From IMG/VR virus record IMGVR_UViG_3300027852_000043, positions 1-60,972 of that record: a stretch of DNA of 60,972 nucleotides; one strand, written 5' to 3'. Below are positions 7,561 to 60,972 of this stretch, piece after piece (position 1 is the first letter of the stretch; each line of letters begins with the position of its first letter). Source of the DNA: a virus. Taxonomy: Duplodnaviria > Caudoviricetes. The notes below the pieces were generated by a model that saw only the letters and a program-made list of their open reading frames with translations, searched no databases and had not been told where the DNA came from. The position numbers were made by a program, and so were the translations under genes.

Positions 7561-7597
7561 TTAACCTTTGCCGTCAGGGTCGAGCGGCTGGTTCGCA
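7561..7597 (-). mobile_element. Truncated attC site (left arm only)
   Basis: 30 bp (7564..7593) identical to 8303..8332 of the intact attC. Confidence 0.7.
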
Positions 7598-8276: not shown

Positions 8277-8336
8277 AGATAACGTTTAGCTAACCTGCGG
8301 CGACCTTTGCCGTCAGGGTCGAGCGGCTGGTTATAA
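8277..8336 (-). mobile_element. Intact integron-type attC site (60 bp)
   Basis: R'' TTATAAC, spacer CAGCC, L'' GCTCGACC, central stem, L' GGTTAGC, spacer TAAAC, R' GTTATCT. Confidence 0.85.
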
Positions 8337-9799: not shown

Positions 9800-10014
9800 G
9801 CTGATTCCTTCCGGCATTGCTCTAAAAACTCGGCAGATATTTTCTTGTCTGCGATTTTAATCATTTTTAATTCATATACTATTTCGCATTTGGGGCAAAA
9901 TAACACCGTATCAAGTAACCCGTTACTGACTTCCTTGAGGTAATTATGGCACTTCCGGCAGGGCGTTTGGGTGATGTAAGGCTCTGCTGTTATATTTATT
10001 TTGCCGCACTTCAT
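9796..10014 (-). CDS. Zinc-ribbon protein
   Basis: CRKC...CPKC. Confidence 0.55.
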   Translation of the reverse strand: MKCGKINITAEPYITQTPCRKCHNYLKEVSNGLLDTVLFCPKCEIVYELKMIKIADKKISAEFLEQCRKESA

Positions 10015-10670
10015 GTTAACCTCTCCAACATCTCATCAAGTTCCCGTAAAAACTCCATGACTTCCGTTTCAATCAATCTTATCATATCCTCATCACGGTA
10101 CAAGCGGTTTACTTTTAAAGGCTTAATCCCTCGAAACTTTTTGGGGATAGTTACGCCTTCATTAGTGTCGTCAAATTCCGGGCAATAGACAATATAATCA
10201 ATCCAGGTCCTACCGGAAACGGACAGAAAATCTTGGCATTGGTAAATGTGGTATGTGTTTATCGTTTTTGTGTATAAAAATTCAAGGAATACTTTCCCCT
10301 TCATTTTCTTGATTTCAATGCCACCGTCTTCCCCGACCAGGCCGTCAGGCGAAACATGCACCCTGGGTAGAGCGGATTTTATCATGGCTATCTGCTCCAC
10401 ATCAACATCTCGCTCCCACTCATACAATGCCCGAGCCTTTGGTTCAAACTCGTGGCCGCTGTCCATGTCTTTGCTGTGGTATGTTTCGTCTCGCTTTCCT
10501 GTGATAATCTCTTTTGCTAATGTATACATCAGGTCTTTCCGCATTTTACTTGGCTTGCCACTCTTACCCTTCGCAAGCACGGCAGGGATGCTTGACCCTC
10601 CGATGGAGCCTAAGCGTAAATCAAACCACTCCTTGCTATTCTGTTCTATCCCTCGGATGATTTCAGGCAT
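10011..10670 (-). CDS. YqaJ / lambda-exonuclease family protein
   Basis: EQNSKEWFDLRLGSIGGS, G..FEPKAR..Y, SPDGLVGEDGGIEIK, YQCQ. Confidence 0.9.
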   Translation of the reverse strand: MPEIIRGIEQNSKEWFDLRLGSIGGSSIPAVLAKGKSGKPSKMRKDLMYTLAKEIITGKRDETYHSKDMDSGHEFEPKARALYEWERDVDVEQIAMIKSALPRVHVSPDGLVGEDGGIEIKKMKGKVFLEFLYTKTINTYHIYQCQDFLSVSGRTWIDYIVYCPEFDDTNEGVTIPKKFRGIKPLKVNRLYRDEDMIRLIETEVMEFLRELDEMLERLT

Positions 10671-10671
10671 T

Positions 10672-11436
10672 TTAGCGTTTCCCTTCCAGTACCTTGACTG
10701 CATTCTCGTATTGTTTCACCGGTAGTTCTGAGAGTGTTTCAATCCCGAACCGCTTTAGGAACTTGGGTCCGTCCGCGCCAACTTCTGTGCGGAGGGCGTC
10801 AAGGTTGGCGCTTTGTTCGTCTGTGATGTATTCAACCGGGTCCGAACCCCTTCCATCATCATCTTGCCCTTTGGCTGCGAGCCCGGTTAGAGATAGGAGC
10901 GTGTACCTTTGGAGGTAGGTTATTGTTGATCCTATGGCCTGTATTGCATTTTTGCTGCCGGAGGTATCGGCTTTTGCTGAGAGGCTGGTTGATTCCGAAT
11001 GACCCTGTTCATGGGTAATGACGCAGGTAACAATAACATCTCCGTTTTGCGCTGTTTTCCATGCTACAGAAAGGCCGTGTTGGCTCAACGCTGCTCCAAT
11101 AACTGATGTAACTGCTCCCAGGGTAGCATGGCTATATTCTGTAGTGCCACCTCCGGCCTGATAGCTAACGCTGGCATCTTTCAATATCTCCGGGGGGTTC
11201 TCCTTGAATGCCGCCATAGCCCTCGTGTACGCTTTCCGGGCTTCATTGGCCTCCCATCTCTCCTGAAGATCCATGAGTTTTTCCAGCTTCGCAAGATCAG
11301 CTCCCTGGTTTACGGCAACTGCCAACAGGTCGGCAGGTGTTGTTCCCGCCACAACCTCGCAGGGCTCAGGAACTACCACTCTTGTTTCTGGCGCCCTATC
11401 CTCAAAATGTCCAATCTTTTCGCCTATATTTTCCAT
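10672..11436 (-). CDS. ERF family single-strand annealing protein
   Basis: YSHATL, L..HGL, H..GHSE, GSKNAIQAIGSTITYLQRYTL, DDDG. Confidence 0.92.
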   Translation of the reverse strand: MENIGEKIGHFEDRAPETRVVVPEPCEVVAGTTPADLLAVAVNQGADLAKLEKLMDLQERWEANEARKAYTRAMAAFKENPPEILKDASVSYQAGGGTTEYSHATLGAVTSVIGAALSQHGLSVAWKTAQNGDVIVTCVITHEQGHSESTSLSAKADTSGSKNAIQAIGSTITYLQRYTLLSLTGLAAKGQDDDGRGSDPVEYITDEQSANLDALRTEVGADGPKFLKRFGIETLSELPVKQYENAVKVLEGKR

Positions 11437-12497
11437 TATAGTGCCTCCAGATCTGTAGTTGCTTTGTCGATTTGTCCCCAGACGACATCGGCAAAAATGT
11501 TGCATACAAACTGCACTTTTCTATCCTTGAGTTTAACAGGGCGTTCCGTCAAAAGCTTGTGGACCATCCCAAGAAATGCCAACACCTGTTCTTTCTCAGG
11601 TCGTAATGCCTCCTGTCGGGCCGCCTCCACTTTCGCTGCTTCCTCTTTCTCAACCCGTTCCTTTTCCTCACGCTCCACTTTGGCCGCTGCTTCTTTCTCA
11701 GCATCAATCTTGGCCTGTTTTTCAAAGGCCTCCTTCTCAATCCGCGCCTGCTCTTTGTGCTTTTCAGCTTCAATCGCTGCACGTTCGTCATCAATCTTCC
11801 GTTGAGCGGCTTCCTGATCTTCCTTGATCTTCCGGTTAGCTTCGTCAATCTTCCTTTGATCTTCGGCCAGGCGGTTCTTTTCGGCTTCCAGTACAGCCCT
11901 TTCCTTCGCAATCCTTTCCGATTCGGCTTTCCGGTCGGCCTCTTCTTTGGCGATCCGTTCAGCTTCAAGTCGCTTTTCCTCTGCTATCCGGGCCTGTTCT
12001 GCCTCGTAATCGGATTTGACCTTTGCAAAGAGACCGTGATATTCATCGGTTCCCATTGCAGCTATATCAAAATAAGGAAGGATAGTGTCGTATTTAGCGA
12101 GGTCTGCCATTCGGGCCTCGACCTTCTCCCTTTCCTTCCGCTCCTCCTCTTCCTTCCGCTTCGCTTCTTCCGCTTCCCATTCATCAAGCGGCTTTCTCAC
12201 TCCGGCCTTGAGGTCATCACAAAAATCCCGCGCTGCTTTCCTGACAGCATCGACCTTCCCGGATTTAGCCTTCCAGTCGGCAACCATTTCTTTACCAATG
12301 TTATCTAACAGCGTCTTCGACCGGGTTATTTTGTACGCAAAAGACACGACCTCCTTCCGGCTCTCTTCCGTTGAGACATCTGGTGTAAACGCTTTCACTT
12401 TAGTCTCGATCTCAATTAATATTTTCTTCATACCTCCCTCGGTATAAAGCGCAACAGGGTCAAGTTTCTCCGCAACGATCAAACTTTTTTCAGTCAT
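11436..12497 (-). CDS. Conserved phage coiled-coil protein of recombination operons
   Basis: PDVST..SRKEV.S.AYK..RSKT.LD..GK followed by a long E/K/A/R coiled coil. Confidence 0.8.
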   Translation of the reverse strand: MTEKSLIVAEKLDPVALYTEGGMKKILIEIETKVKAFTPDVSTEESRKEVVSFAYKITRSKTLLDNIGKEMVADWKAKSGKVDAVRKAARDFCDDLKAGVRKPLDEWEAEEAKRKEEEERKEREKVEARMADLAKYDTILPYFDIAAMGTDEYHGLFAKVKSDYEAEQARIAEEKRLEAERIAKEEADRKAESERIAKERAVLEAEKNRLAEDQRKIDEANRKIKEDQEAAQRKIDDERAAIEAEKHKEQARIEKEAFEKQAKIDAEKEAAAKVEREEKERVEKEEAAKVEAARQEALRPEKEQVLAFLGMVHKLLTERPVKLKDRKVQFVCNIFADVVWGQIDKATTDLEAL

Positions 12498-13499: not shown

Positions 13500-13727
13500 A
13501 TGAAGCAACCGAGGGAGCCAGGCATATATCAATTTACGTGTACGAAAAAATTCAGCTTTCCGATATCTTTAGACGAATGGGTCGTCGGGGTCGTTTTTAA
13601 AGAGGACGGTAAGTGGCGCTATTACGGCGTTGCAGGTTGCGCAAAATATGCCCATGGGTTTTCGTGGCCGCTGGCACCATTCGTGGGGCATGGGGAATTT
13701 AAGAGGTTAACCAGCAAAACAACATGA
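13500..13727 (+). CDS. Cassette-borne hypothetical protein
   Basis: AAGGAG RBS; lies between two attC-like sites. Confidence 0.65.
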   Translation: MKQPREPGIYQFTCTKKFSFPISLDEWVVGVVFKEDGKWRYYGVAGCAKYAHGFSWPLAPFVGHGEFKRLTSKTT

Positions 13728-13764
13728 CCCAAAAAAGCCGGGCAGGTGAACTATATCGTTATAC
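13705..13764 (+). mobile_element. attC site (60 bp) with an eroded L'' box
   Basis: R'' GGTTAAC, TG(A)CCC/GGGCA stem, AAAAAAGCC loop, L' GGTGAAC, R' GTTATAC. Confidence 0.65.
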
Positions 13765-15854: not shown

Positions 15855-15939
15855 AAAAACACAAATAGCTCCAGGATAGCCAACCTTCCCAGGTTTGGCC
15901 GGTGCTGCATCACCACATCCTGGGGCTATTTGTGTTTTT
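15855..15939 (+). ncRNA. Structured leader / c4-antisense-like RNA upstream of the replication gene
   Basis: 23-bp stem AAAAACACAAATAGCTCCAGGAT/ATCCTGGGGCTATTTGTGTTTTT enclosing two small hairpins. Confidence 0.55.
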
Positions 15940-40732: not shown

Positions 40733-42127
40733 ATGAATATTGTCAACGTGCCCAATGTAACTCAGACCCTTTTTCCAAGAGAAGGGGATATTTCATCTTC
40801 CGCAGTACAGCTTGCGAATGATCAGTTTATCGCCTCAAATGAAAGAGCAGCCGAAGCCCTGGAGAATGCTAACACATATTTGAGTGAGTTGTGGGCTGTC
40901 CTTACTGGCGTACAAGCCAACATGCCGGAAACAAACATTACTTATGATTACCAAAAGATAAACTTAACCACACCACTGGAAACGTTACGTCCTGAGCCAC
41001 CTACAGATGAGCAACTCACACCTGCAGATATAACTTCCCCTAAATTACTCCAAGCATTAACACAGATATCGGTTCCTGATATCATAGACATGCCAGCTGA
41101 TAATGTTGGTGAGCTTGAATCCCAGGTGCTGGATTATGTTGAAGTGCCATACGCGTCTGATATCGCTGATGCTCTTAAGACATTGTTACTTGATTATATT
41201 GCTAATGGTGGCACAGGACTTGGTGCTGATGTAGAGGCTGCTCTTTTTGCCAGGGCCAGAGCCAGGACTGAACTATCTAACGAAAGGATCTATGAGGAAG
41301 CCGAAGAGTATTTCTCTTCAAGGGGTTGGGATATTCCACCTGATACACTTGGTGGTCGATTAACTGAAGCTTTACAAGAAATAACACGGGCCGACGAGCA
41401 AGTAAATTATGAGATTACAATTGAGCAAGCAAGGTTGGCTCAAAACAACACGCAATTTGCTCTAACAACAAGCCTTGGTCTTGAAGGCCAGGATAAAGAG
41501 CAAGCGAATCAGATAGCGGACAGGGCTCTTGAGAAAGCGAAAGCAGCCGTTGACGTGATTCTTAACACGTACAACGCCAAGATGGTTGGTTTTCTCAATA
41601 GGATTGAGGCGGTGAAAGCCAGTGCTATGGCTGCTGAAGCAACTGTCAACGCTCAGGCGGCTATGAATACTTCGATTGTGGAAGTATACAAAGCTGATAT
41701 TGAAAAATACAGCCAGGACGTGATTAAGGAACTTGGAATCGTTGAGCTAATCGGCAAGGTCTATGGGTTTAAAGTTCAGGGGTATGAGGCTGATTCTAAG
41801 GCAGCGGCGGTTTTGTTGGATGCTGAGATAAAAGAATATCAGGGCAGGATTGAGCAGGCAAATAACCAGACCCAGTTATCTATCAAGGAGGCTGAGTTAA
41901 TTCTTCAGACATACTTGAGTAGCCTGAGCATAGACACAGAAGGTCTTAAAACTCTAGCTCTTATCACTTCGCAAATCGCAGCAAGCGCGTTAAGTGGTGT
42001 CAGCGCAAGTGCAAGTCTTGGGTCAAGTGTGAGTAATAGTAAATCGGAGAGTATTGGGGCTACTACCGCTATTTCCGCTGGACAAACTGGAACTGAAAGA
42101 CACAATTATGAGTACACAGGAACGTAA
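40733..42127 (+). CDS. Helical coiled-coil virion (ejection-like) protein
   Basis: Ala/Glu/Gln-rich heptads; SSRGWDIPP. Confidence 0.7.
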   Translation: MNIVNVPNVTQTLFPREGDISSSAVQLANDQFIASNERAAEALENANTYLSELWAVLTGVQANMPETNITYDYQKINLTTPLETLRPEPPTDEQLTPADITSPKLLQALTQISVPDIIDMPADNVGELESQVLDYVEVPYASDIADALKTLLLDYIANGGTGLGADVEAALFARARARTELSNERIYEEAEEYFSSRGWDIPPDTLGGRLTEALQEITRADEQVNYEITIEQARLAQNNTQFALTTSLGLEGQDKEQANQIADRALEKAKAAVDVILNTYNAKMVGFLNRIEAVKASAMAAEATVNAQAAMNTSIVEVYKADIEKYSQDVIKELGIVELIGKVYGFKVQGYEADSKAAAVLLDAEIKEYQGRIEQANNQTQLSIKEAELILQTYLSSLSIDTEGLKTLALITSQIAASALSGVSASASLGSSVSNSKSESIGATTAISAGQTGTERHNYEYTGT

Positions 42128-57368: not shown

Positions 57369-58331
57369 ATGTATAGCTATATGACCGGAAAATCCATAGA
57401 TGAACTCTTGATGGAACGGCGAACGATTGAGGACCTCATCAAGCAGAATTTCGAGCGCAAGCTGGCTATGCTATTTATTGACGTCTGGGGATACACCCAG
57501 TATGTCGAGACCAGAACAGCCGTCAATGGCCGGGCGATGCTCAAAGAGTTTTTCGATATCGTCAGCCCGATTATTGAAAAATACGCGGGTGTGCTGGTCA
57601 AGAAGATCGGCGATGAAGCTATGGTCGCGTTCACTTCGCCCGTATCAGCGGCACGGGCCTCCATCGCAATGCAGCAGGGGCTCGCTGAATATAACAGGCA
57701 GGTTACAAAGCAGAACCGGATACACGCAAAGATCGGGGTTGATTATGGCGAGGTCTTGGTTGAGGACAAAGACATACATGGAGACACAGTAAATGTGGCT
57801 TCTCGTGTGACGAGTCTGGCAGGCAAGGACCAGATATTGTTCACCGGGTTTGCATGGGTACCTACCCGAGACGTCGAAGGGGTTGTTTTCCGGGATTACG
57901 GGGTCGTTACACTGAAGGGCAAAGCGGAGCCTGTCAACCTCTACGAGCTGGTCTGGCGCGATGATAGAAGTCTACCCAGGGTAGGGCCACAAAAAGAAAC
58001 AGCGCCGCCAATACCTGCGGCTATTATCGAAAATGGCCAATTCGATTCCTTGACCAGGTACCTGGATTTGATCTATGATACACAGCGTCAACATGCTGCG
58101 ACTATCGGGAAGTTGTTTGACAAACTGGATGCGCAAGGGAAGGCTATCGCAAAATGTGAACCACGGCTCGATGCCTTGGAAAAGCTCACTTCCGAAGAGC
58201 TTAAACCTGCGGTAGAGGCCCACACAAAAAGTCTTTCCCGGATAACGGGGGCGCCTCTTTTTGTTAGTTTCCTTTTGGGTCTTGGCGCGTTATTGGCTAT
58301 GTTTTTAGCATGGTTTGGATTTAAGAATTAA
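57369..58331 (+). CDS. Class III adenylate/guanylate cyclase fused to a coiled coil and C-terminal TM helix
   Basis: AMLFIDVWGYT, VKKIGDEAM, KIGVDYG.V, DIHGDTVNVASR, LKGK; C-terminal LFVSFLLGLGALLAMFLAWF. Confidence 0.9.
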   Translation: MYSYMTGKSIDELLMERRTIEDLIKQNFERKLAMLFIDVWGYTQYVETRTAVNGRAMLKEFFDIVSPIIEKYAGVLVKKIGDEAMVAFTSPVSAARASIAMQQGLAEYNRQVTKQNRIHAKIGVDYGEVLVEDKDIHGDTVNVASRVTSLAGKDQILFTGFAWVPTRDVEGVVFRDYGVVTLKGKAEPVNLYELVWRDDRSLPRVGPQKETAPPIPAAIIENGQFDSLTRYLDLIYDTQRQHAATIGKLFDKLDAQGKAIAKCEPRLDALEKLTSEELKPAVEAHTKSLSRITGAPLFVSFLLGLGALLAMFLAWFGFKN

Positions 58332-58343
58332 GGAGGTGGTATC

Positions 58344-58562
58344 ATGGGGTTTTTAAAGTATTTGTCGTACATCGGAAAAGGAGCCAAGGTGATTAGTATT
58401 TTGGCCTTGGAGATTTCCAAAATTCTTGCCGATGGGAAAGTCACAGTTGGTGAGGCTATGGATTCATTTGAAAAAGCAGCAGGCGGGGCAGGCATGCCAC
58501 TTAAAATTGAAGTCCCTTATGAGATCAGGGAAATGTCAATGAGAGTGAAAGAGGTGAAATGA
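58344..58562 (+). CDS. Small protein (possible holin-like)
   Basis: AAGGAGG RBS; LADGKVT..E; end of the late operon. Confidence 0.55.
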   Translation: MGFLKYLSYIGKGAKVISILALEISKILADGKVTVGEAMDSFEKAAGGAGMPLKIEVPYEIREMSMRVKEVK

Positions 58563-58565
58563 GAT

Positions 58566-58754
58566 ATGGGAAAACATTTAATAATTATGCTTGAGTATGA
58601 TATGGGTGATTATTCTGACATGGAAGGCGATGGGCAAGAAATACCAACCGACCCAAACGATGTTGGGCTAAATGAATCATTTTATCAAGGTGAAGCCTCA
58701 AGACATGATATGCGTATTGTTGGGGTGAGAACTGAAGACAGGGAAGCCGTATGA
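58566..58754 (+). CDS. Hypothetical protein
   Basis: GAGGTG RBS. Confidence 0.5.
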   Translation: MGKHLIIMLEYDMGDYSDMEGDGQEIPTDPNDVGLNESFYQGEASRHDMRIVGVRTEDREAV

Positions 58755-58848
58755 CCTTAAACCCAATATCCGCGACCATAGACCCAGGGGCATTAACTGT
58801 CCTTCATGCGAAGGCCAACCTTGTTTCCCATTACAAGTTCTTCGGTTA

Positions 58849-59100
58849 TTACCAGTTGGGGTTTTTCTCATGTGCGTATTTATGAGCTGCATCTTTAGTA
58901 TCGAATACTTTATCGATAAAGTCAGACACGGGGGAAATTGAAGATAGAAACTTTTGTTTGTCAAAGTTTTCACCATCCCAATATGCAGCATCTGGAAAAT
59001 GGCCCTCCTCTGGTTCCCAACATATCAACACCGCATACCACCCTCTTTGTTTTGGCCTTGGGTCGTTGATATCATACACGCTAATGAATTCTGTATCCAT
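58849..59100 (-). CDS. Hypothetical protein
   Basis: GGGAG RBS; P...GWY.V. Confidence 0.6.
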   Translation of the reverse strand: MDTEFISVYDINDPRPKQRGWYAVLICWEPEEGHFPDAAYWDGENFDKQKFLSSISPVSDFIDKVFDTKDAAHKYAHEKNPNW

Positions 59101-59157
59101 TACTCCCTATTTTACTGAATTCCATATATTTGCTTCCAACCATACCGGTCTCCTTTT
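59101..59157. repeat. 57-bp perfect direct repeat (second copy 59975..60031)
   Basis: Contains the RBS and first 14 codons of the 59784..60017 gene. Confidence 0.9.
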
Positions 59158-59207
59158 CTGTTACTGTTTGCTCAACATTCGATCGGCGATAACCCTGGGG
59201 AGCACCA

Positions 59208-59259
59208 CCATAACACTCATTGCCACTGTTCATTAGGCAATGAAATCAACTGGTTAGCG
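59208..59259 (-). mobile_element. Degenerate attC directly abutting the upstream attC
   Basis: R'' CGCTAAC-CAGTT; 8-bp stem TCATTGCC/GGCAATGA; right arm irregular. Confidence 0.4.
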
Positions 59260-59319
59260 GTATAACGTTAAGCTGACTTACCACGGCTTCTTGTGGGTAA
59301 GTCCAGCGGCTGGTTAGGA
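59260..59319 (-). mobile_element. Intact attC site (60 bp)
   Basis: R'' TCCTAAC, CAGCC, L'' GCTGGACT, TACC(C)AC/GTGGTA, L' AGTCAGC, TTAAC, R' GTTATAC. Confidence 0.85.
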
Positions 59320-59459
59320 GTAATACCGTGTGTTACGTGTGCCGCGGGCCAATGTCCGCAGTCTTCACATACTCGTTTACCCTTCAACGCTGGTTTACGT
59401 TTTCCATCTTGAATTATTGGTTTAAAAATAATTTTTCCCCCGCACTTTTCACATTTCAT
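59268..59459 (-). CDS. Cassette-borne zinc-ribbon protein
   Basis: CEKCG...CEDCG; reads into attC (PNQPLDL). Confidence 0.6.
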   Translation of the reverse strand: MKCEKCGGKIIFKPIIQDGKRKPALKGKRVCEDCGHWPAAHVTHGITPNQPLDLPTRSRGKSA

Positions 59460-59469
59460 TACTTTAATC

Positions 59470-59525
59470 TCTTAACGCTAAGATCAGCCGCCGGGTCTTC
59501 GGTCGGCTGCATTTGTTGGTTATAA
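59470..59525 (-). mobile_element. Intact attC site (56 bp)
   Basis: R'' TTATAAC, CAACA, L'' AATGCAGC, CG(A)CC/GGCG, L' GCTGATC, TTAGC, R' GTTAAGA. Confidence 0.85.
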
Positions 59526-59726
59526 GATTTCTAATATCACCGCATCACCAACATACGAATGACCGGTATCCCGGTAAAACCACCATTTGTCAAAACCCTC
59601 AACCGCAACAGATACATCGTCCGCGTCTATGATTTCATATTCGTAGAATCCAGATGGCAACATCACATTGCCAGATTTGTTGTGGACCTTGACCCTGTCA
59701 CCTTTTTTTAAAGTTCCGAGTTCCAT
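59520..59726 (-). CDS. Cassette-borne small beta-barrel-like protein
   Basis: AAGGAG RBS right after R'; LKKGDRVKV; stop TAA inside R''. Confidence 0.7.
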   Translation of the reverse strand: MELGTLKKGDRVKVHNKSGNVMLPSGFYEYEIIDADDVSVAVEGFDKWWFYRDTGHSYVGDAVILEIL

Positions 59727-59739
59727 TTAGAATTGCTCC

Positions 59740-59797
59740 TTATAACAGGTTGATCACCAGTGCGGCCCTTGGCATCTGGTGGATTAACTGGTTGTGC
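59740..59797 (-). mobile_element. Intact attC site (58 bp)
   Basis: R'' GCACAAC, CAGTT, L'' AATCCACC, AG(A)TGC/GCACT, L' GGTGATC, AACCT, R' GTTATAA. Confidence 0.85.
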
Positions 59798-60017
59798 GCC
59801 TCTGAGCCATTAGTTCGAAAATCATTTTTTTGATATCATCCATGCAATCGGTGTTAAATACGCAATTGGCGGAAGGGAAAAAACAGTATTGTCGCCATGC
59901 CCCATACCATTTAATTGTACCTAAAATAAATCCCGATGACTTAGAAAGAATGTCCCAAATATCTGTTTTCCCCGTACTCCCTATTTTACTGAATTCCATA
60001 TATTTGCTTCCAACCAT
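59784..60017 (-). CDS. Conserved phage protein ending in attC
   Basis: KT..W.I......LG.IKWYGAWRQYCFFP....VFN..CM.DI. Confidence 0.75.
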   Translation of the reverse strand: MVGSKYMEFSKIGSTGKTDIWDILSKSSGFILGTIKWYGAWRQYCFFPSANCVFNTDCMDDIKKMIFELMAQRRTTS

Positions 60018-60029
60018 ACCGGTCTCCTT

Positions 60030-60230
60030 TTATGGCCGTGGTTGCTTAAAAACCCACCAATCTTGAATAAATGGCTCTTGGCCTACCCAATGTTTTTGGG
60101 TATACCCAACGAATTCCCACCCCTGCTTATCCATTAAATTGAGCCAGGATTCCATGTCTCTATTATCCATCACAGGTGACTTTGCGTTTTGTGGTAAGTC
60201 CGGTTGCGTACATTTGTATTTATATCTCAT
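60030..60230 (-). CDS. Hypothetical protein (DUF4177-like)
   Basis: Y.YK...LN.M.KQGWEFV...VFK.P. Confidence 0.6.
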   Translation of the reverse strand: MRYKYKCTQPDLPQNAKSPVMDNRDMESWLNLMDKQGWEFVGYTQKHWVGQEPFIQDWWVFKQPRP

Positions 60231-60294
60231 AACTGCTCTCACCCCTCGCATATCCCAACAAAGATACTCCTGTACTTTAGCTCCAAAGCCATTA

Positions 60295-60708
60295 TTATAC
60301 AATTCTTCGTAATATCTGCCCAATCGGATTTTCTGAAACCTCAAACAAAGGCTCTCCGGTAAGCCATATTTGGCACTGGATATGGTTAAGTTGTTCGTCC
60401 CATGCCATGTGCATGATCTCAGTGCCAAACTCTTCAGATAGCCTCTTGACAAACACAGATGCGGTTTCAAAATTCCAATAATTAAAAACCCCTGCAAATA
60501 CAACATATGACCCTTTGTGTGCAATTAATTCTTGAGACATACATCGAGACGGATCACCGTCCTCTCCGCCTAAATCAGGGTCGTCGTCAGTTCCCCGCAT
60601 TTCCAGCGTAATCTTTTTAATGCGTTCTTTCATGTCTTTTGTGTCAGTGGAACCGGAGAAAACTCCTCCCGTCCTTATGCCGATCATGTGAGAAATATAA
60701 TACCCCAT
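60295..60708 (-). CDS. Hypothetical protein
   Basis: GGGAGG RBS. Confidence 0.7.
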   Translation of the reverse strand: MGYYISHMIGIRTGGVFSGSTDTKDMKERIKKITLEMRGTDDDPDLGGEDGDPSRCMSQELIAHKGSYVVFAGVFNYWNFETASVFVKRLSEEFGTEIMHMAWDEQLNHIQCQIWLTGEPLFEVSENPIGQILRRIV

Positions 60709-60737
60709 AATTACCTCCCGTTGCGTAACAAGTAATC

Positions 60738-60944
60738 CTATTCCCCCTCGCATATCCCAATAAAAATACTTCTGTGCTTCACCTCCAACGCCTCCAGCGT
60801 CTTTGCCAGCTCATCCAGTTCTTTCAGGTCGGCCTTTGCGTCGTCCGTTTTCGGGTCACACTCTGCGATCCCCTCCAGTAGCAGTATGGGGATATCGGAC
60901 AGATGCGACCAGGCAAGGGAGAACTGGTCTTTGATGTACATATC
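60738..60944 (-). CDS. C-terminal part of the junction-spanning hypothetical protein
   Basis: In frame with 1..102 once the terminal overlap is merged. Confidence 0.75.
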   Translation of the reverse strand, partial: DMYIKDQFSLAWSHLSDIPILLLEGIAECDPKTDDAKADLKELDELAKTLEALEVKHRSIFIGICEGE

Positions 60945-60972
60945 TGTTAATTTTTCTCTGGAAAACGGGACC
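60945..60972. repeat. Terminal overlap, copy 2
   Basis: 27/28 identical to 1..28. Confidence 0.9.

What the first reader, a model, noticed from the sequence alone, without database searches (positions are those of the whole stretch)
59208..60017. Integron gene-cassette array carried by a phage that has no integron integrase
Seen in the sequence: three consecutive small minus-strand genes each end in a 56-60 bp imperfect palindrome with full attC grammar. The pattern is R'' (..AAC), 5-bp spacer, 8-nt L'', central stem with a second unpaired base, 7-nt L', 5-bp spacer, R' (GTT..), at 59740-59797, 59470-59525 and 59260-59319. The three sites differ in sequence but keep the pairing. The middle cassette starts with GTTATAA and its own attC starts with the exact complement TTATAAC, with the stop codon inside R''. 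The next pair (GTTAAGA/TCCTAAC) has one mismatch. Established knowledge: this R'/R'' complementarity marks an excisable cassette, and IntI recombines folded attC bottom strands. No tyrosine recombinase is visible in this apparently complete genome. Inference: the phage gains or shuffles accessory genes as cassettes using a host IntI in trans, so it is a phage-borne CALIN and may act as a vector between integrons. I consider this the best candidate for an undescribed system here.
Basis: partly seen in the sequence, partly recalled or inferred. Interest (0 to 1): 0.92.

Follow-up and report, generated by a model that had tools for sequence, protein, structure and literature searches.

The report
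Integron attC cassette array in phage
Three small early genes of a marine phage are each followed by a folded DNA site of the kind that bacterial integrons use to swap gene cassettes; this is a real but already described kind of phage feature.

Summary
Three 56-60 bp imperfect palindromes lie at 59740-59797, 59470-59525 and 59260-59319, each at the end of a small minus-strand gene. They share the layout of the class 1 aadA2 attC: 7-nt core, 5-nt spacer, 3 bp, bulge, 6 bp, bulge, stem. A covariance model built only from bacterial attCs ranks exactly these sites, plus 8277-8336, as the window's top four hits. attC_C shares a 17-nt left arm with an attC beside an integron integrase in a bacterial MAG. 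The phage record (CheckV 100%) has no tyrosine or serine recombinase.

Close relatives carry similar arrays with different genes. In two relatives, homology to the middle cassette starts exactly at the G of GTTATAA. The 3' ends of homology do not fall at G|TT.

The site is therefore an attC cluster without integrase (CALIN). It is not undescribed: Qi et al. 2023 reported 17 phage CALINs and recombined virulent-phage attCs with IntI1. Host IntI acting in trans remains an inference, and the phage's own ERF/YqaJ recombination is a live rival for the shuffling. This is a new member of a known kind, with useful comparative evidence of cassette turnover.

The parts
59784..60017 (-). ORF-A, 77 aa, the first gene of the array. 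Its stop (59786-59784) lies in the spacer/L'' of attC_A. There is no attC upstream of it.
   Evidence: No Pfam or PHROG family. 29 homologous viral loci were found; only L115 (6 R3 hits on the locus; flanking attC-like sites read by eye) has model-detected attCs, and L114 has only a stub of the left arm, read by eye.
59740..59797 (-). attC_A, 58 bp. The top strand is the minus strand and the folding bottom strand is the plus strand. R'' is GCACAAC and R' is GTTATAA.
   Evidence: R3 (bacterial attCs only) gives 14.4 bits, E 0.22, with exact ends, the 4th best hit in the window. R1 gives 54.1 bits, but this site was in R1's training set.
59520..59726 (-). ORF-B, 68 aa, the middle cassette gene. 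Its stop lies inside R'' of attC_B.
   Evidence: Homologs at 97%, 85% and 49% lie in L084, L085 and L086 with different neighbours.
59470..59525 (-). attC_B, 56 bp. R'' is TTATAAC, the exact complement of the cassette's first bases GTTATAA. R' is GTTAAGA.
   Evidence: R3 gives 28.8 bits, E 6e-5. R2 (six class 1 attCs only) gives 19.5 bits, E 0.011.
59268..59459 (-). ORF-C, 63 aa, a CxxC..CxxC zinc-ribbon-like protein. Its last 17 codons are encoded by attC_C, and its stop lies in the 3' spacer.
   Evidence: The 60% homologs in L081/L082 sit in a tight operon without any palindrome.
59260..59319 (-). attC_C, 60 bp. R'' is TCCTAAC and R' is GTTATAC. Its left arm CTAACCAGCCGCTGGAC is identical to that of an attC in a complete bacterial integron (L108).
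   Evidence: R3 gives 40.3 bits, E 1e-7. It is 78% identical to L085:5621-5675 and 85% identical to L115:4528-4587, sites that follow other genes.
59208..59259 (-). attC-like remnant directly abutting attC_C (CGCTAAC..hairpin..GTTATGG) with wrong spacer lengths.
   Evidence: Read by eye. Neither R1 nor R3 detects it at E<=10.
59101..59175 (.). Second copy of a direct repeat (first copy at 59975-60049; 57 bp perfect, covering the RBS plus the first 14 codons of ORF-A). The two copies bracket the whole 874-bp array.
   Evidence: family D1.
8277..8336 (-). A fourth attC of the same type in another part of the early region.
   Evidence: R3 gives 29.4 bits, E 5e-5. It is 87.5% identical over 56 nt to a site in L102.
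13705..13764 (+). Weak attC-like site behind a plus-strand gene. Its bottom strand is the minus strand, so its orientation is canonical.
   Evidence: R1 gives 19.5 bits, E 0.02. R3 does not find it at E<=10.

Best explanation
The three palindromes are genuine integron-type attC recombination sites. Together with their single small ORFs they form a cassette array without an integrase (a CALIN) inside the early-gene region of a marine phage.

The likely mechanism is as follows. When phage DNA is single-stranded during replication or recombination, the plus (bottom) strand of each site folds into the R-box / spacer / L-box hairpin with two flipped-out bases. An integron integrase supplied by an infected host then recombines attC x attC (excision, exchange) or attC with a second site (insertion). 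In this way cassettes enter, leave and change neighbours at G|TT.

Shown: the site architecture, the match to bacterial attC models, the same attC type beside a real IntI, the absence of any recombinase in this phage, different cassette content in relatives, and a 5' cassette junction exactly at the GTT core.

Inferred: that a host IntI does the cutting, that it still happens in this lineage, and in which direction cassettes flow.

The confidence of 0.7 is for the whole statement. I put the identity of the sites as attC / CALIN at about 0.85-0.9 and the action of a host IntI on them at about 0.5.
For: 1. Architecture. The aadA2 attC (L090:3816-3875) reads GTCTAAC-AATTC-GTT[C]AAGCCG[A]CCGCG..CGCGG-CGGCTT-AAC-TCCGGC-GTTAGAT. 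That is the same 7+5+3+bulge+6+bulge layout as sites A and B. The bulges lie on the same arm, the 5' arm of the top strand, which is the 3' arm of the bottom strand.

2. Covariation: 7 of 9 stem pairs are compensatory and 0 of 500 shuffles reach the score.

3. Model R1, built from 6 phage sites, gave 21 hits at E<=10 in 186,666 bases.
- 6 were training sites and 6 were further sites of the lineage.
- 9 were sites in integron-bearing records (L090 x1, L089 x6, L088 x2). For the three I had delimited by eye (L090:3816-3875, L089:12788-12858, L089:13472-13531) the ends coincide, and the orientation is correct.
- In 1,042,482 bases of 83 other phage loci, R1 hit only L003, a relative.

4. Model R3, built from 24 attCs of bacterial or class 1 arrays with no site of this phage lineage (though 9 of the 24 come from integrons carried on phage records, L088 x2 and L089 x6, plus one from a Salmonella genomic island held in the 'phages' collection, L090).
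- It ranks the four window sites first.
- It finds 14 untrained Vibrio attCs in L087.
- It gives 1 hit in 1.01 Mb of other phage DNA.

5. Model R2, built from six class 1 attCs and fully independent of the phage, finds attC_B at E 0.011.

6. A pattern taken from the phage site type finds 14 loci in bacterial or archaeal genomes (about 2 expected by my own rough calculation).
- 13 of the 14 hold R1 hits, and 9 of them hold two or more, co-oriented within each locus.
- 8 of the 14 genomes have TIGR02249 above its cut-off, against 0 of 14 controls. Leaving out the unpublished G047, the count is 7 of 13.
- L108 has IntI (496.7 bits, cut-off 265) about 250 bp from the first attC. Its second attC shares 17 nt with attC_C.

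7. Relatives.
- G001, G002, G020 and G051 carry 4, 4, 1 and 8 hits. 33 of 36 terminase relatives have none.
- L084 has ORF-B (97% aa) between different genes.
- Homology of both L084 and L085 to the window starts at 59746, the G of GTTATAA.
- Contigs of a marine metagenome run have loose ends at 59746, 59483, 59262 and 59315/59317.

8. Published precedent. IntI1 recombines virulent-phage attCs (PMC9892861, section 3.4). IntI also inserts cassettes at non-att genomic sites (10.1101/2022.09.11.507474, passages).
Against: - The 3' ends of homology are not at G|TT. Against L084, homology stops at 59483, inside L' and 7 nt before the G at 59476. Against L085 it stops at 59520, inside R'', and L085 has a terminator-like hairpin instead of an attC.
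- The hairpin loop of attC_B also differs at 6 of 6 positions between the window and L084, although the flanks are 97% identical.
- attC_A is only marginal under the bacterial model (E 0.22).
- R3 is not fully independent. R1 chose and aligned its 24 training sites, and 6 of them were found with a pattern derived from phage sites.
- R2, the fully independent model, finds only B.
- The first flipped-out base on the bottom strand is G, C, C in the three sites, not always G as in class 1. The L108 attC also has C.
- The R'' sequences do not fit RYYYAAC beyond AAC.
- The excess of G.T pairs on the bottom strand over the top strand is 8 to 4 in 298 cells, which is not decisive.
- The host is unknown, so whether it has IntI is unknown.
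- The phage encodes ERF and YqaJ. These could recombine the conserved arms without any IntI.
Confidence: 0.7

Rival explanations
1. The sites are attC by descent, but in this phage lineage they are now shuffled by the phage's own homologous recombination. ERF single-strand annealing protein plus YqaJ exonuclease would act on the short conserved arms (..ATAACC.., ..ACGTTAT..), with IntI playing no current part.
For: - ERF (PF04404, 58.7 bits) and YqaJ (PF09588, 69.8 bits) are encoded at 10011-11505.
- The two 3' homology ends lie inside the arms, not at G|TT.
- A 57-bp perfect direct repeat brackets the whole array.
- A second repeat pair (60242-60290 and 60744-60792) coincides with a contig joint.
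- The arm motifs are conserved across sites.
Against: The 5' junction of cassette B falls on the same base, the G of GTT, in 2 of 2 comparisons with three different upstream partners. However, a conserved ACGTTAT motif would give the same picture under microhomology, so this does not discriminate strongly. The rival also does not explain why the flipped-out bases and their spacing are kept.
Confidence: 0.2
2. The palindromes are phage-intrinsic punctuation of the early operon: terminators, RNA-processing hairpins, or promoter/stem-loop cassettes like the PeSLs of T4-type phages (recalled, not read here). On this view they resemble attC only by convergence.
For: They sit between small early genes. 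Qi et al. note that attCs may act as weak terminators. Mosaic boundaries at intergenic stem-loops are known in phages (recalled).
Against: - No terminator-like site lies on the coding (minus) strand at any of the three sites, and no promoter-like site lies at them. Counts do not exceed shuffles.
- Rfam gives nothing.
- 17 identical bases are shared with an attC next to IntI.
- A model of bacterial attCs finds the sites with exact ends.
- 33 of 36 related phages lack them.
Confidence: 0.05
3. Assembly artefact: a bacterial integron fragment was joined to a phage contig.
For: The record is a metagenome assembly. Repeated attCs break assemblies, and the run's contigs end at the attCs.
Against: - Arrays of the same type occur in several independent contigs of related phages: G001, G002, G051, L084 and L085.
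- The window has sites in three separate parts of the early region.
- The cassette gene ORF-A belongs to a family found in 29 viral loci.
- The flanks on both sides are phage early genes.
Confidence: 0.03

Closest known systems
Phage-borne CALINs (Qi, Rajabal, Ghaly, Tetu, Gillings 2023, Front Microbiol 14:1091391; PMC9892861)
   Same: Clusters of two or more attC sites with small unknown ORFs in phage genomes that lack an integron integrase, including virulent phages. The cassettes are co-oriented. The proposed role is a phage route for cassette transfer. 5 of 6 tested phage attCs recombined with attI1 under IntI1 (section 3.4).
   Different: This case is an uncultured marine phage with no close match in the phage collection. 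Its sites lie in three parts of the early region. Several relatives carry arrays with different genes, which gives natural junction data that I did not see in the sections I read. The paper's full list of 17 CALINs is in a supplementary table that I could not open, so I cannot exclude that a relative is listed there.
Class 1 integron attC of aadA2/aadA1 (the classic 59-base element), read from L090:3816-3875 and L089:16733-16792
   Same: It is 60 bp long with the same order and spacing of R'', 5-nt spacer, 3 bp, flipped-out base, 6 bp, flipped-out A (T on the bottom strand), stem, 5-6-nt spacer and R'. The phage-trained model R1 finds these sites at 29.3 and 28.5 bits.
   Different: The class 1 sites lie next to intI1/attI1 and carry resistance genes. 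Their first flipped-out bottom-strand base is G, whereas in the phage it is G, C, C. The R'' and R' sequences differ beyond AAC/GTT.
Chromosomal integron in a Sulfurifustaceae MAG contig (L108)
   Same: Its second attC (1948->1889) begins CTAACCAGCCGCTGGAC and ends GTCAGC..GTTA, as attC_C does, and it likewise has C as the flipped-out bottom-strand base. The array runs away from a divergent IntI.
   Different: It has its own integrase, is GC-rich (0.75 against 0.50 for the site) and has different cassette genes.
PeSL mobile regulatory cassettes of T4-type phages (recalled from memory; no paper read)
   Same: Short repeated stem-loop elements flank small early genes, and gene content changes between relatives at those elements.
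   Different: PeSLs are an early promoter plus a stem-loop and recombine by homology. Here no promoter-like or terminator-like signal lies at the sites, and the sites match bacterial attC models.

Membership tests
Integron attC site (59-base element) | Inverse core ..AAC at the 5' end and core GTT.. at the 3' end of the top strand, in the consensus RYYYAAC / GTTRRRY | tested here: inconclusive
   AAC and GTT are present in 3 of 3 sites and invariant in the 11 aligned lineage sites. The degenerate positions do not fit the consensus: R'' is GCACAAC, TTATAAC, TCCTAAC and R' is GTTATAA, GTTAAGA, GTTATAC. The consensus itself is recalled and also quoted in PMC9892861.
Integron attC site (59-base element) | Imperfect palindrome folding into R box, unpaired spacer, L box and a variable stem-loop, with structure conserved and sequence free | tested here: met
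   97.4% of 78 cells pair and 7 of 9 L/stem pairs are compensatory. The spacing is the same as in the aadA2 attC read.
Integron attC site (59-base element) | Flipped-out (extrahelical) bases on the '' arm of the bottom strand, which set strand choice | tested here: met
   There are two bulges on the 3' arm of the plus (bottom) strand in A and C and one or two in B. They sit after 3 bp and after 6 further bp, as in aadA2. The identity of the first is G, C, C. The second is T in A and B and G in C.
Integron attC site (59-base element) | Recognised by a covariance model of known attC sites | tested here: met
   R3 (24 bacterial attCs) gives C 40.3 bits, B 28.8 bits and A 14.4 bits (E 0.22), the top hits of the window. 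R2 (6 class 1 attCs) finds B only, at E 0.011. R3's training set was picked with a phage-derived model. The IntegronFinder and HattCI models themselves were not available.
Integron attC site (59-base element) | Recombined as a folded bottom strand by an integron integrase, with crossover at G|TT | not testable with these tools
   Indirect only. The 5' junction of cassette B is at the G of GTT in 2 of 2 comparisons, and the 3' junctions are at G|TT in 0 of 2.
CALIN (cluster of attC sites lacking an integron integrase) | Two or more attC sites close together, with no integron integrase nearby or in the replicon | tested here: met
   Three sites lie within 540 bp. There is no PF00589 match in the whole 60,972-bp record, which CheckV rates 100% complete. 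The definition is as used in PMC9892861, section 2.1.
CALIN (cluster of attC sites lacking an integron integrase) | Cassette-like units: mostly one short ORF per unit, co-oriented, with the attC at its 3' end | tested here: met
   ORF-A, ORF-B and ORF-C (77, 68 and 63 aa) all lie on the minus strand, and each stop lies inside or at its attC.
Complete integron | intI gene, attI site and cassette promoter next to the array | tested here: not met
   The window has no tyrosine recombinase. The relative G051 has only a Xer-like one (TIGR02249 41.9 bits against a cut-off of 265).
Intrinsic terminator / promoter-stem-loop punctuation | GC-rich hairpin followed by a T run on the coding strand, or sigma-70-like hexamers at the element | tested here: not met
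   None lies on the minus strand at the three sites. 3 terminator-like and 4 promoter-like matches occur in 58700-60972, against 2.4 and 4.7 in shuffles.

The most novel reading that the evidence does not exclude
In this marine phage lineage, attC sites may be the general currency of early-gene exchange. Ordinary phage genes would become integron cassettes and stop being cassettes again: the ORF-A family is seen with attCs on both sides in L115, on one side in the window, as a stub in L114, and with none in 26 other loci. Phages infecting IntI-bearing hosts would then be both a birthplace and a long-range carrier of integron cassettes. That would explain why nearly the same attC sequence (85-95% over 55-60 nt) turns up in MAGs of unrelated phyla.
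Probability: 0.25. Interest if true: 0.75.

Novelty: new member of a known kind. Interest (0 to 1): 0.5.

Why it matters
Phage-borne attC clusters have been known since 2023, so their mere existence is not new. This case adds a set of related uncultured phage contigs in which the same cassette sits between different neighbours, with one junction exactly at the recombination core. It also adds an attC type shared with a real bacterial integron and with genomes of many phyla.

That makes three questions testable.
- Whether integron integrases act on infecting phage DNA in nature.
- Whether phages carry cassettes between distant hosts.
- Where cassettes come from.

The cassettes encode unknown small early proteins, the class of genes in which anti-defence functions are usually sought.

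Tried and rejected
- Rfam, at gathering and E-value thresholds, gave nothing relevant.
- Megablast of 58000-60972 against 50,697 phage records gave no match. By terminase protein, the nearest cultured phages are below 60% identical.
- The bare pattern TAAC..GGTTA gave 17 hits against 9.3 expected, too weak to use.
- My own strict descriptor found only site B among 7 hits, because R''/R' of neighbouring cassettes need not pair. I dropped it.
- Ranking AAC..GTT intervals by folding energy did not single out the sites.
- Flanking proteins (60295-60753 and 58849-59100) and the ORF-B alignment found no relative in viral contigs.
- ORF-C homologs in L081/L082 have no palindrome, so the gene is not always a cassette.
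- RNAalifold on the MAFFT alignment found no structure, because spacer lengths put rows out of register. I gave the structure by hand on a 6-row subset instead.
- R2 (class 1 only) is too narrow. It finds 1 site in the Shewanella cassette array and none of the Vibrio attCs.
- R1 misses all 15 Vibrio-type attCs.
- Pfam and PHROGs gave nothing for the cassette proteins.
- Bottom-strand against top-strand G.T counts were 8 against 4, which is inconclusive.
- Read laying had only contigs of one run, probably the source sample. The joint 59259->60241 has a side of 26 letters (under 30), so I do not use it.
- The orientation of the G002 (L003) sites relative to genes could not be settled, because ORFs overlap on both strands.
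- L113, and perhaps L102, may be phage contigs binned into MAGs. I therefore rest the bacterial link on L108.
- I did not use structure prediction, complex prediction, the protein atlas or the representative search, because the question was about DNA sites.
Full report
**What the window is**

The window is a whole IMG/VR virus record of 60,972 bp that CheckV rates 100% complete. Its first and last 28 bases overlap with one mismatch, so it is circular or circularly permuted (D7). It encodes a large terminase, a portal protein and virion proteins. A block of mostly small minus-strand genes runs from about 58.8 kb across the ends to about 12.6 kb.

The block includes ERF and YqaJ recombination proteins, a sigma-factor-like protein and a DUF5131 protein. 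Plus-strand genes start near 13.0 kb. No tyrosine recombinase, serine recombinase or IS200-type transposase is found. No phage record matches 58000-60972 by megablast, and the terminase of the nearest cultured phages is under 60% identical. One marine metagenome run holds 95% of the sampled words of the region. It may be the source sample.

**The observation**

On the coding (minus) strand each has this order:
- a 7-nt element ending in AAC;
- a 5-nt spacer;
- 3 paired bases;
- one unpaired base;
- 6-7 paired bases;
- a second unpaired base;
- a short stem and loop;
- the complementary arm without the two extra bases;
- a 5-nt spacer;
- GTT plus four bases.

DNA folding of the plus strand places both bulges on its 3' arm. 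The stops of ORF-A, ORF-B and ORF-C lie in the spacer/L'' of attC_A, in R'' of attC_B and in the 3' spacer of attC_C. Cassette B begins GTTATAA and its own site begins TTATAAC. The next pair has one mismatch.

**Comparison with real attC sites**

I fetched bona fide integrons named in Qi et al. 2023 or found with an integron integrase. I read the class 1 attCs of aadA2, gcuF and dfrA12, and several in a P1 phage-plasmid. The aadA2 site has the same order and spacing as phage sites A and B. That includes 6 bp between the two unpaired bases and an unpaired A on the top strand, which is T on the bottom strand.

Six phage-lineage sites aligned in register show 97.4% pairing, compensatory change in 7 of 9 L-box/stem pairs, and no shuffle reaching the covariation score.

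**Covariance models**

R1 was built from those six phage sites. It gave 21 hits at E<=10 in 186,666 bases:
- the six training sites;
- six further sites in the window, L084 and L085;
- nine sites in the class 1 and Shewanella integron records. For the three that I had delimited by eye beforehand the ends coincide, and the bottom strand is correctly oriented with respect to the cassettes.

R1 missed all 15 long Vibrio-type sites. In 1,042,482 bases of 83 other phage loci, it hit only L003, a relative.

R2 was built from six class 1 attCs and nothing else. It is narrow, finding only one site in the Shewanella cassette array, but it still finds attC_B at 19.5 bits, E 0.011, and its near-twin in L084.

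R3 was built from 24 attCs of bacterial arrays, class 1 integrons and the Shewanella integron.
- It finds 14 sites of the Vibrio array, none of which was used in training. These are 13 of the 15 repeat copies plus one more.
- It gives one hit at E<=10 in 1,013,390 bases of 81 other phage loci.
- In the window with filters off, it ranks attC_C, 8277-8336, attC_B and attC_A first, at 40.3, 29.4, 28.8 and 14.4 bits. Nothing else appears up to E 9.

R3 has a caveat. R1 selected and aligned its training sites, and six of them came from a pattern search designed on phage sites, so it is not a fully independent test. R2 is independent but supports only B.

**Link to bacterial integrons**

A pattern written from the commonest phage site type found 14 loci in genomes of many phyla. 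By my own estimate about two were expected by chance.
- R1 finds 36 hits in 13 of these 14 loci. Nine of the loci hold two or more, all on one strand within each locus, spaced like cassettes.
- Eight of the 14 genomes have an integron integrase above NCBIfam's cut-off, against none of 14 control genomes. One of the eight, G047, is unpublished, and without it the count is 7 of 13.
- In L108, a contig of a Sulfurifustaceae MAG, the integrase (496.7 bits, cut-off 265) lies about 250 bp from the first attC.
- The second attC of L108 shares the 17 bases CTAACCAGCCGCTGGAC, and the right arm GTCAGC, with attC_C.

attC sequences of this type are 85-95% identical over 55-60 nt between the phage lineage and MAG contigs of unrelated taxa. 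Some of those contigs (L113, perhaps L102) may themselves be phage DNA. L113 carries a methyltransferase cassette and a 63% homolog of a cassette gene of L085.

**Relatives and junctions**

Of 36 whole records related by terminase, only three hold R1 hits: G001 with four, G002 with four and G020 with one. G051, found through ORF-A, holds eight R3 hits on one strand over 10 kb. G001 shows a run of small plus-strand genes, each followed by a site of 58-134 nt.

ORF-B occurs in three further contigs.
- In L084 (97% aa) the genes on both sides differ from the window's, and six palindromes lie in 1.8 kb.
- In L085 (85%) the upstream partner is a 131-nt site, and the gene ends in a terminator-like hairpin.
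- Homology of both to the window begins at 59746, the G of GTTATAA, with three unrelated upstream sequences. That is the position expected for an IntI crossover.
- The other ends do not fit. Homology stops at 59483 (inside L', 7 nt before the G at 59476) for L084 and at 59520 (inside R'') for L085.
- The loop of attC_B is also wholly different in L084.

Contigs of the marine run end or diverge at 59746, 59483, 59262 and 59315/59317. This agrees with several arrangements in one population, but they are contigs, not reads.

ORF-A belongs to a family with 29 viral loci.
- In L115 it is flanked on both sides by long attC-like sites. I read these by eye, and R3 did not detect them.
- In the window it has a site only downstream.
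- In L114 it has only a stub of the left arm.
- The other 26 loci have no model hit.

**What it most likely is and does**

The sites are attC sites, and the unit is a CALIN in a phage without an integrase. The best mechanistic reading is that integrases of infected hosts act on folded bottom strands of replicating phage DNA. Cassettes would then be excised, exchanged and inserted. Published work shows that IntI1 accepts virulent-phage attCs and that IntI can insert cassettes at ordinary genomic sites.

What is shown here is site identity, context, absence of a phage recombinase, and turnover between relatives. The enzyme is inferred.

The main rival for the turnover is the phage's own ERF/YqaJ system acting on the conserved arms. 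Three observations favour it: the two off-core 3' junctions, the 57-bp direct repeat that brackets the whole array (D1), and a second repeat pair nearby (D2). The two mechanisms may well act together.

Terminator or promoter punctuation is not supported. An assembly artefact is unlikely, given independent contigs with the same kind of array.

**Novelty**

Two full-text searches both lead to Qi et al. 2023. That paper screened 10,705 phage genomes, found 3 complete integrons, one In0 and 17 CALINs, and showed IntI1 recombination for 5 of 6 attCs from three virulent phages (I read sections 2.1, 3 part 1 and 3.4).

I did not see in those sections a lineage-level comparison of cassette content with mapped junctions, or the link to one widely shared environmental attC type. 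The paper's supplementary tables were not available to me and may bear on this.

I rate this a new member of a known kind, of moderate interest.

Noticed in passing
window 59101-59175 and 59975-60049: A direct repeat, 57 bp perfect, covering the RBS plus the first 14 codons of ORF-A, brackets the whole three-cassette block (874 bp apart). The downstream copy is a truncated ORF start whose end supplies the RBS of the next gene (58849-59100). It suggests insertion or loss of the block by homologous recombination.
   Followed up: partly
window 60242-60290 and 60744-60792: A 49-nt repeat at 86% identity lies at two gene junctions 502 bp apart. A contig of the marine run joins 60286 to 60814, skipping 527 bases, with 25 other letters between.
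   Followed up: no
window 57369-58331 (+): A 320-aa protein has an adenylate/guanylate cyclase catalytic domain (PF00211, 65.9 bits) directly upstream of the early block.
   Followed up: no
window 15858-15936: A near-perfect 79-nt hairpin with a 20-bp outer stem (AACACAAATAGCTCCAGGAT..), by far the most stable AAC..GTT interval in the window (-43.5 kcal/mol with RNA parameters).
   Followed up: no
window 10011-11505 (-): A YqaJ-like exonuclease and an ERF single-strand annealing protein lie side by side. This is a phage recombination module that could itself shuffle the attC-flanked genes.
   Followed up: partly
G051 (record of L115), 41567-42082; locus L143:993-1964 (-): A relative with eight attC hits encodes a 323-aa Xer-like tyrosine recombinase about 7 kb from the array. 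It scores 109 bits on XerA and 41.9 bits on the integron integrase model (cut-off 265), so it is not an IntI by that test. Its role is open.
   Followed up: partly
L085:5672-5839: A 168-bp unit without an ORF lies between two attC-like sites. Its first 19 bases (GTTAGCAACTCAAAGGCAT) are the exact reverse complement of its last 19, far longer than an R box.
   Followed up: no
L085:4600-4770: A tandem array of a 15-nt unit (about 11 copies, cgcctctaaggtctg-like) lies inside a minus-strand gene next to the cassette region.
   Followed up: no
L027:1335-1388 (G013:29572-29625): This is the only hit of the bacterial attC model (32.5 bits) among 81 other phage loci. It may be another phage-borne attC in an unrelated phage.
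   Followed up: no
window 59268-59319 and protein P0006: The last 17 codons of ORF-C are encoded by attC_C. The homolog P0006 (65% identical) keeps the attC-encoded peptide SRGKSA and reads on, so the site is translated in both.
   Followed up: no
window 7561-7597 and 8303-8332: A 30-nt perfect repeat equals the right half of the 8277-8336 attC. The copy at 7564-7593 has no left arm, so it is a half-site.
   Followed up: partly
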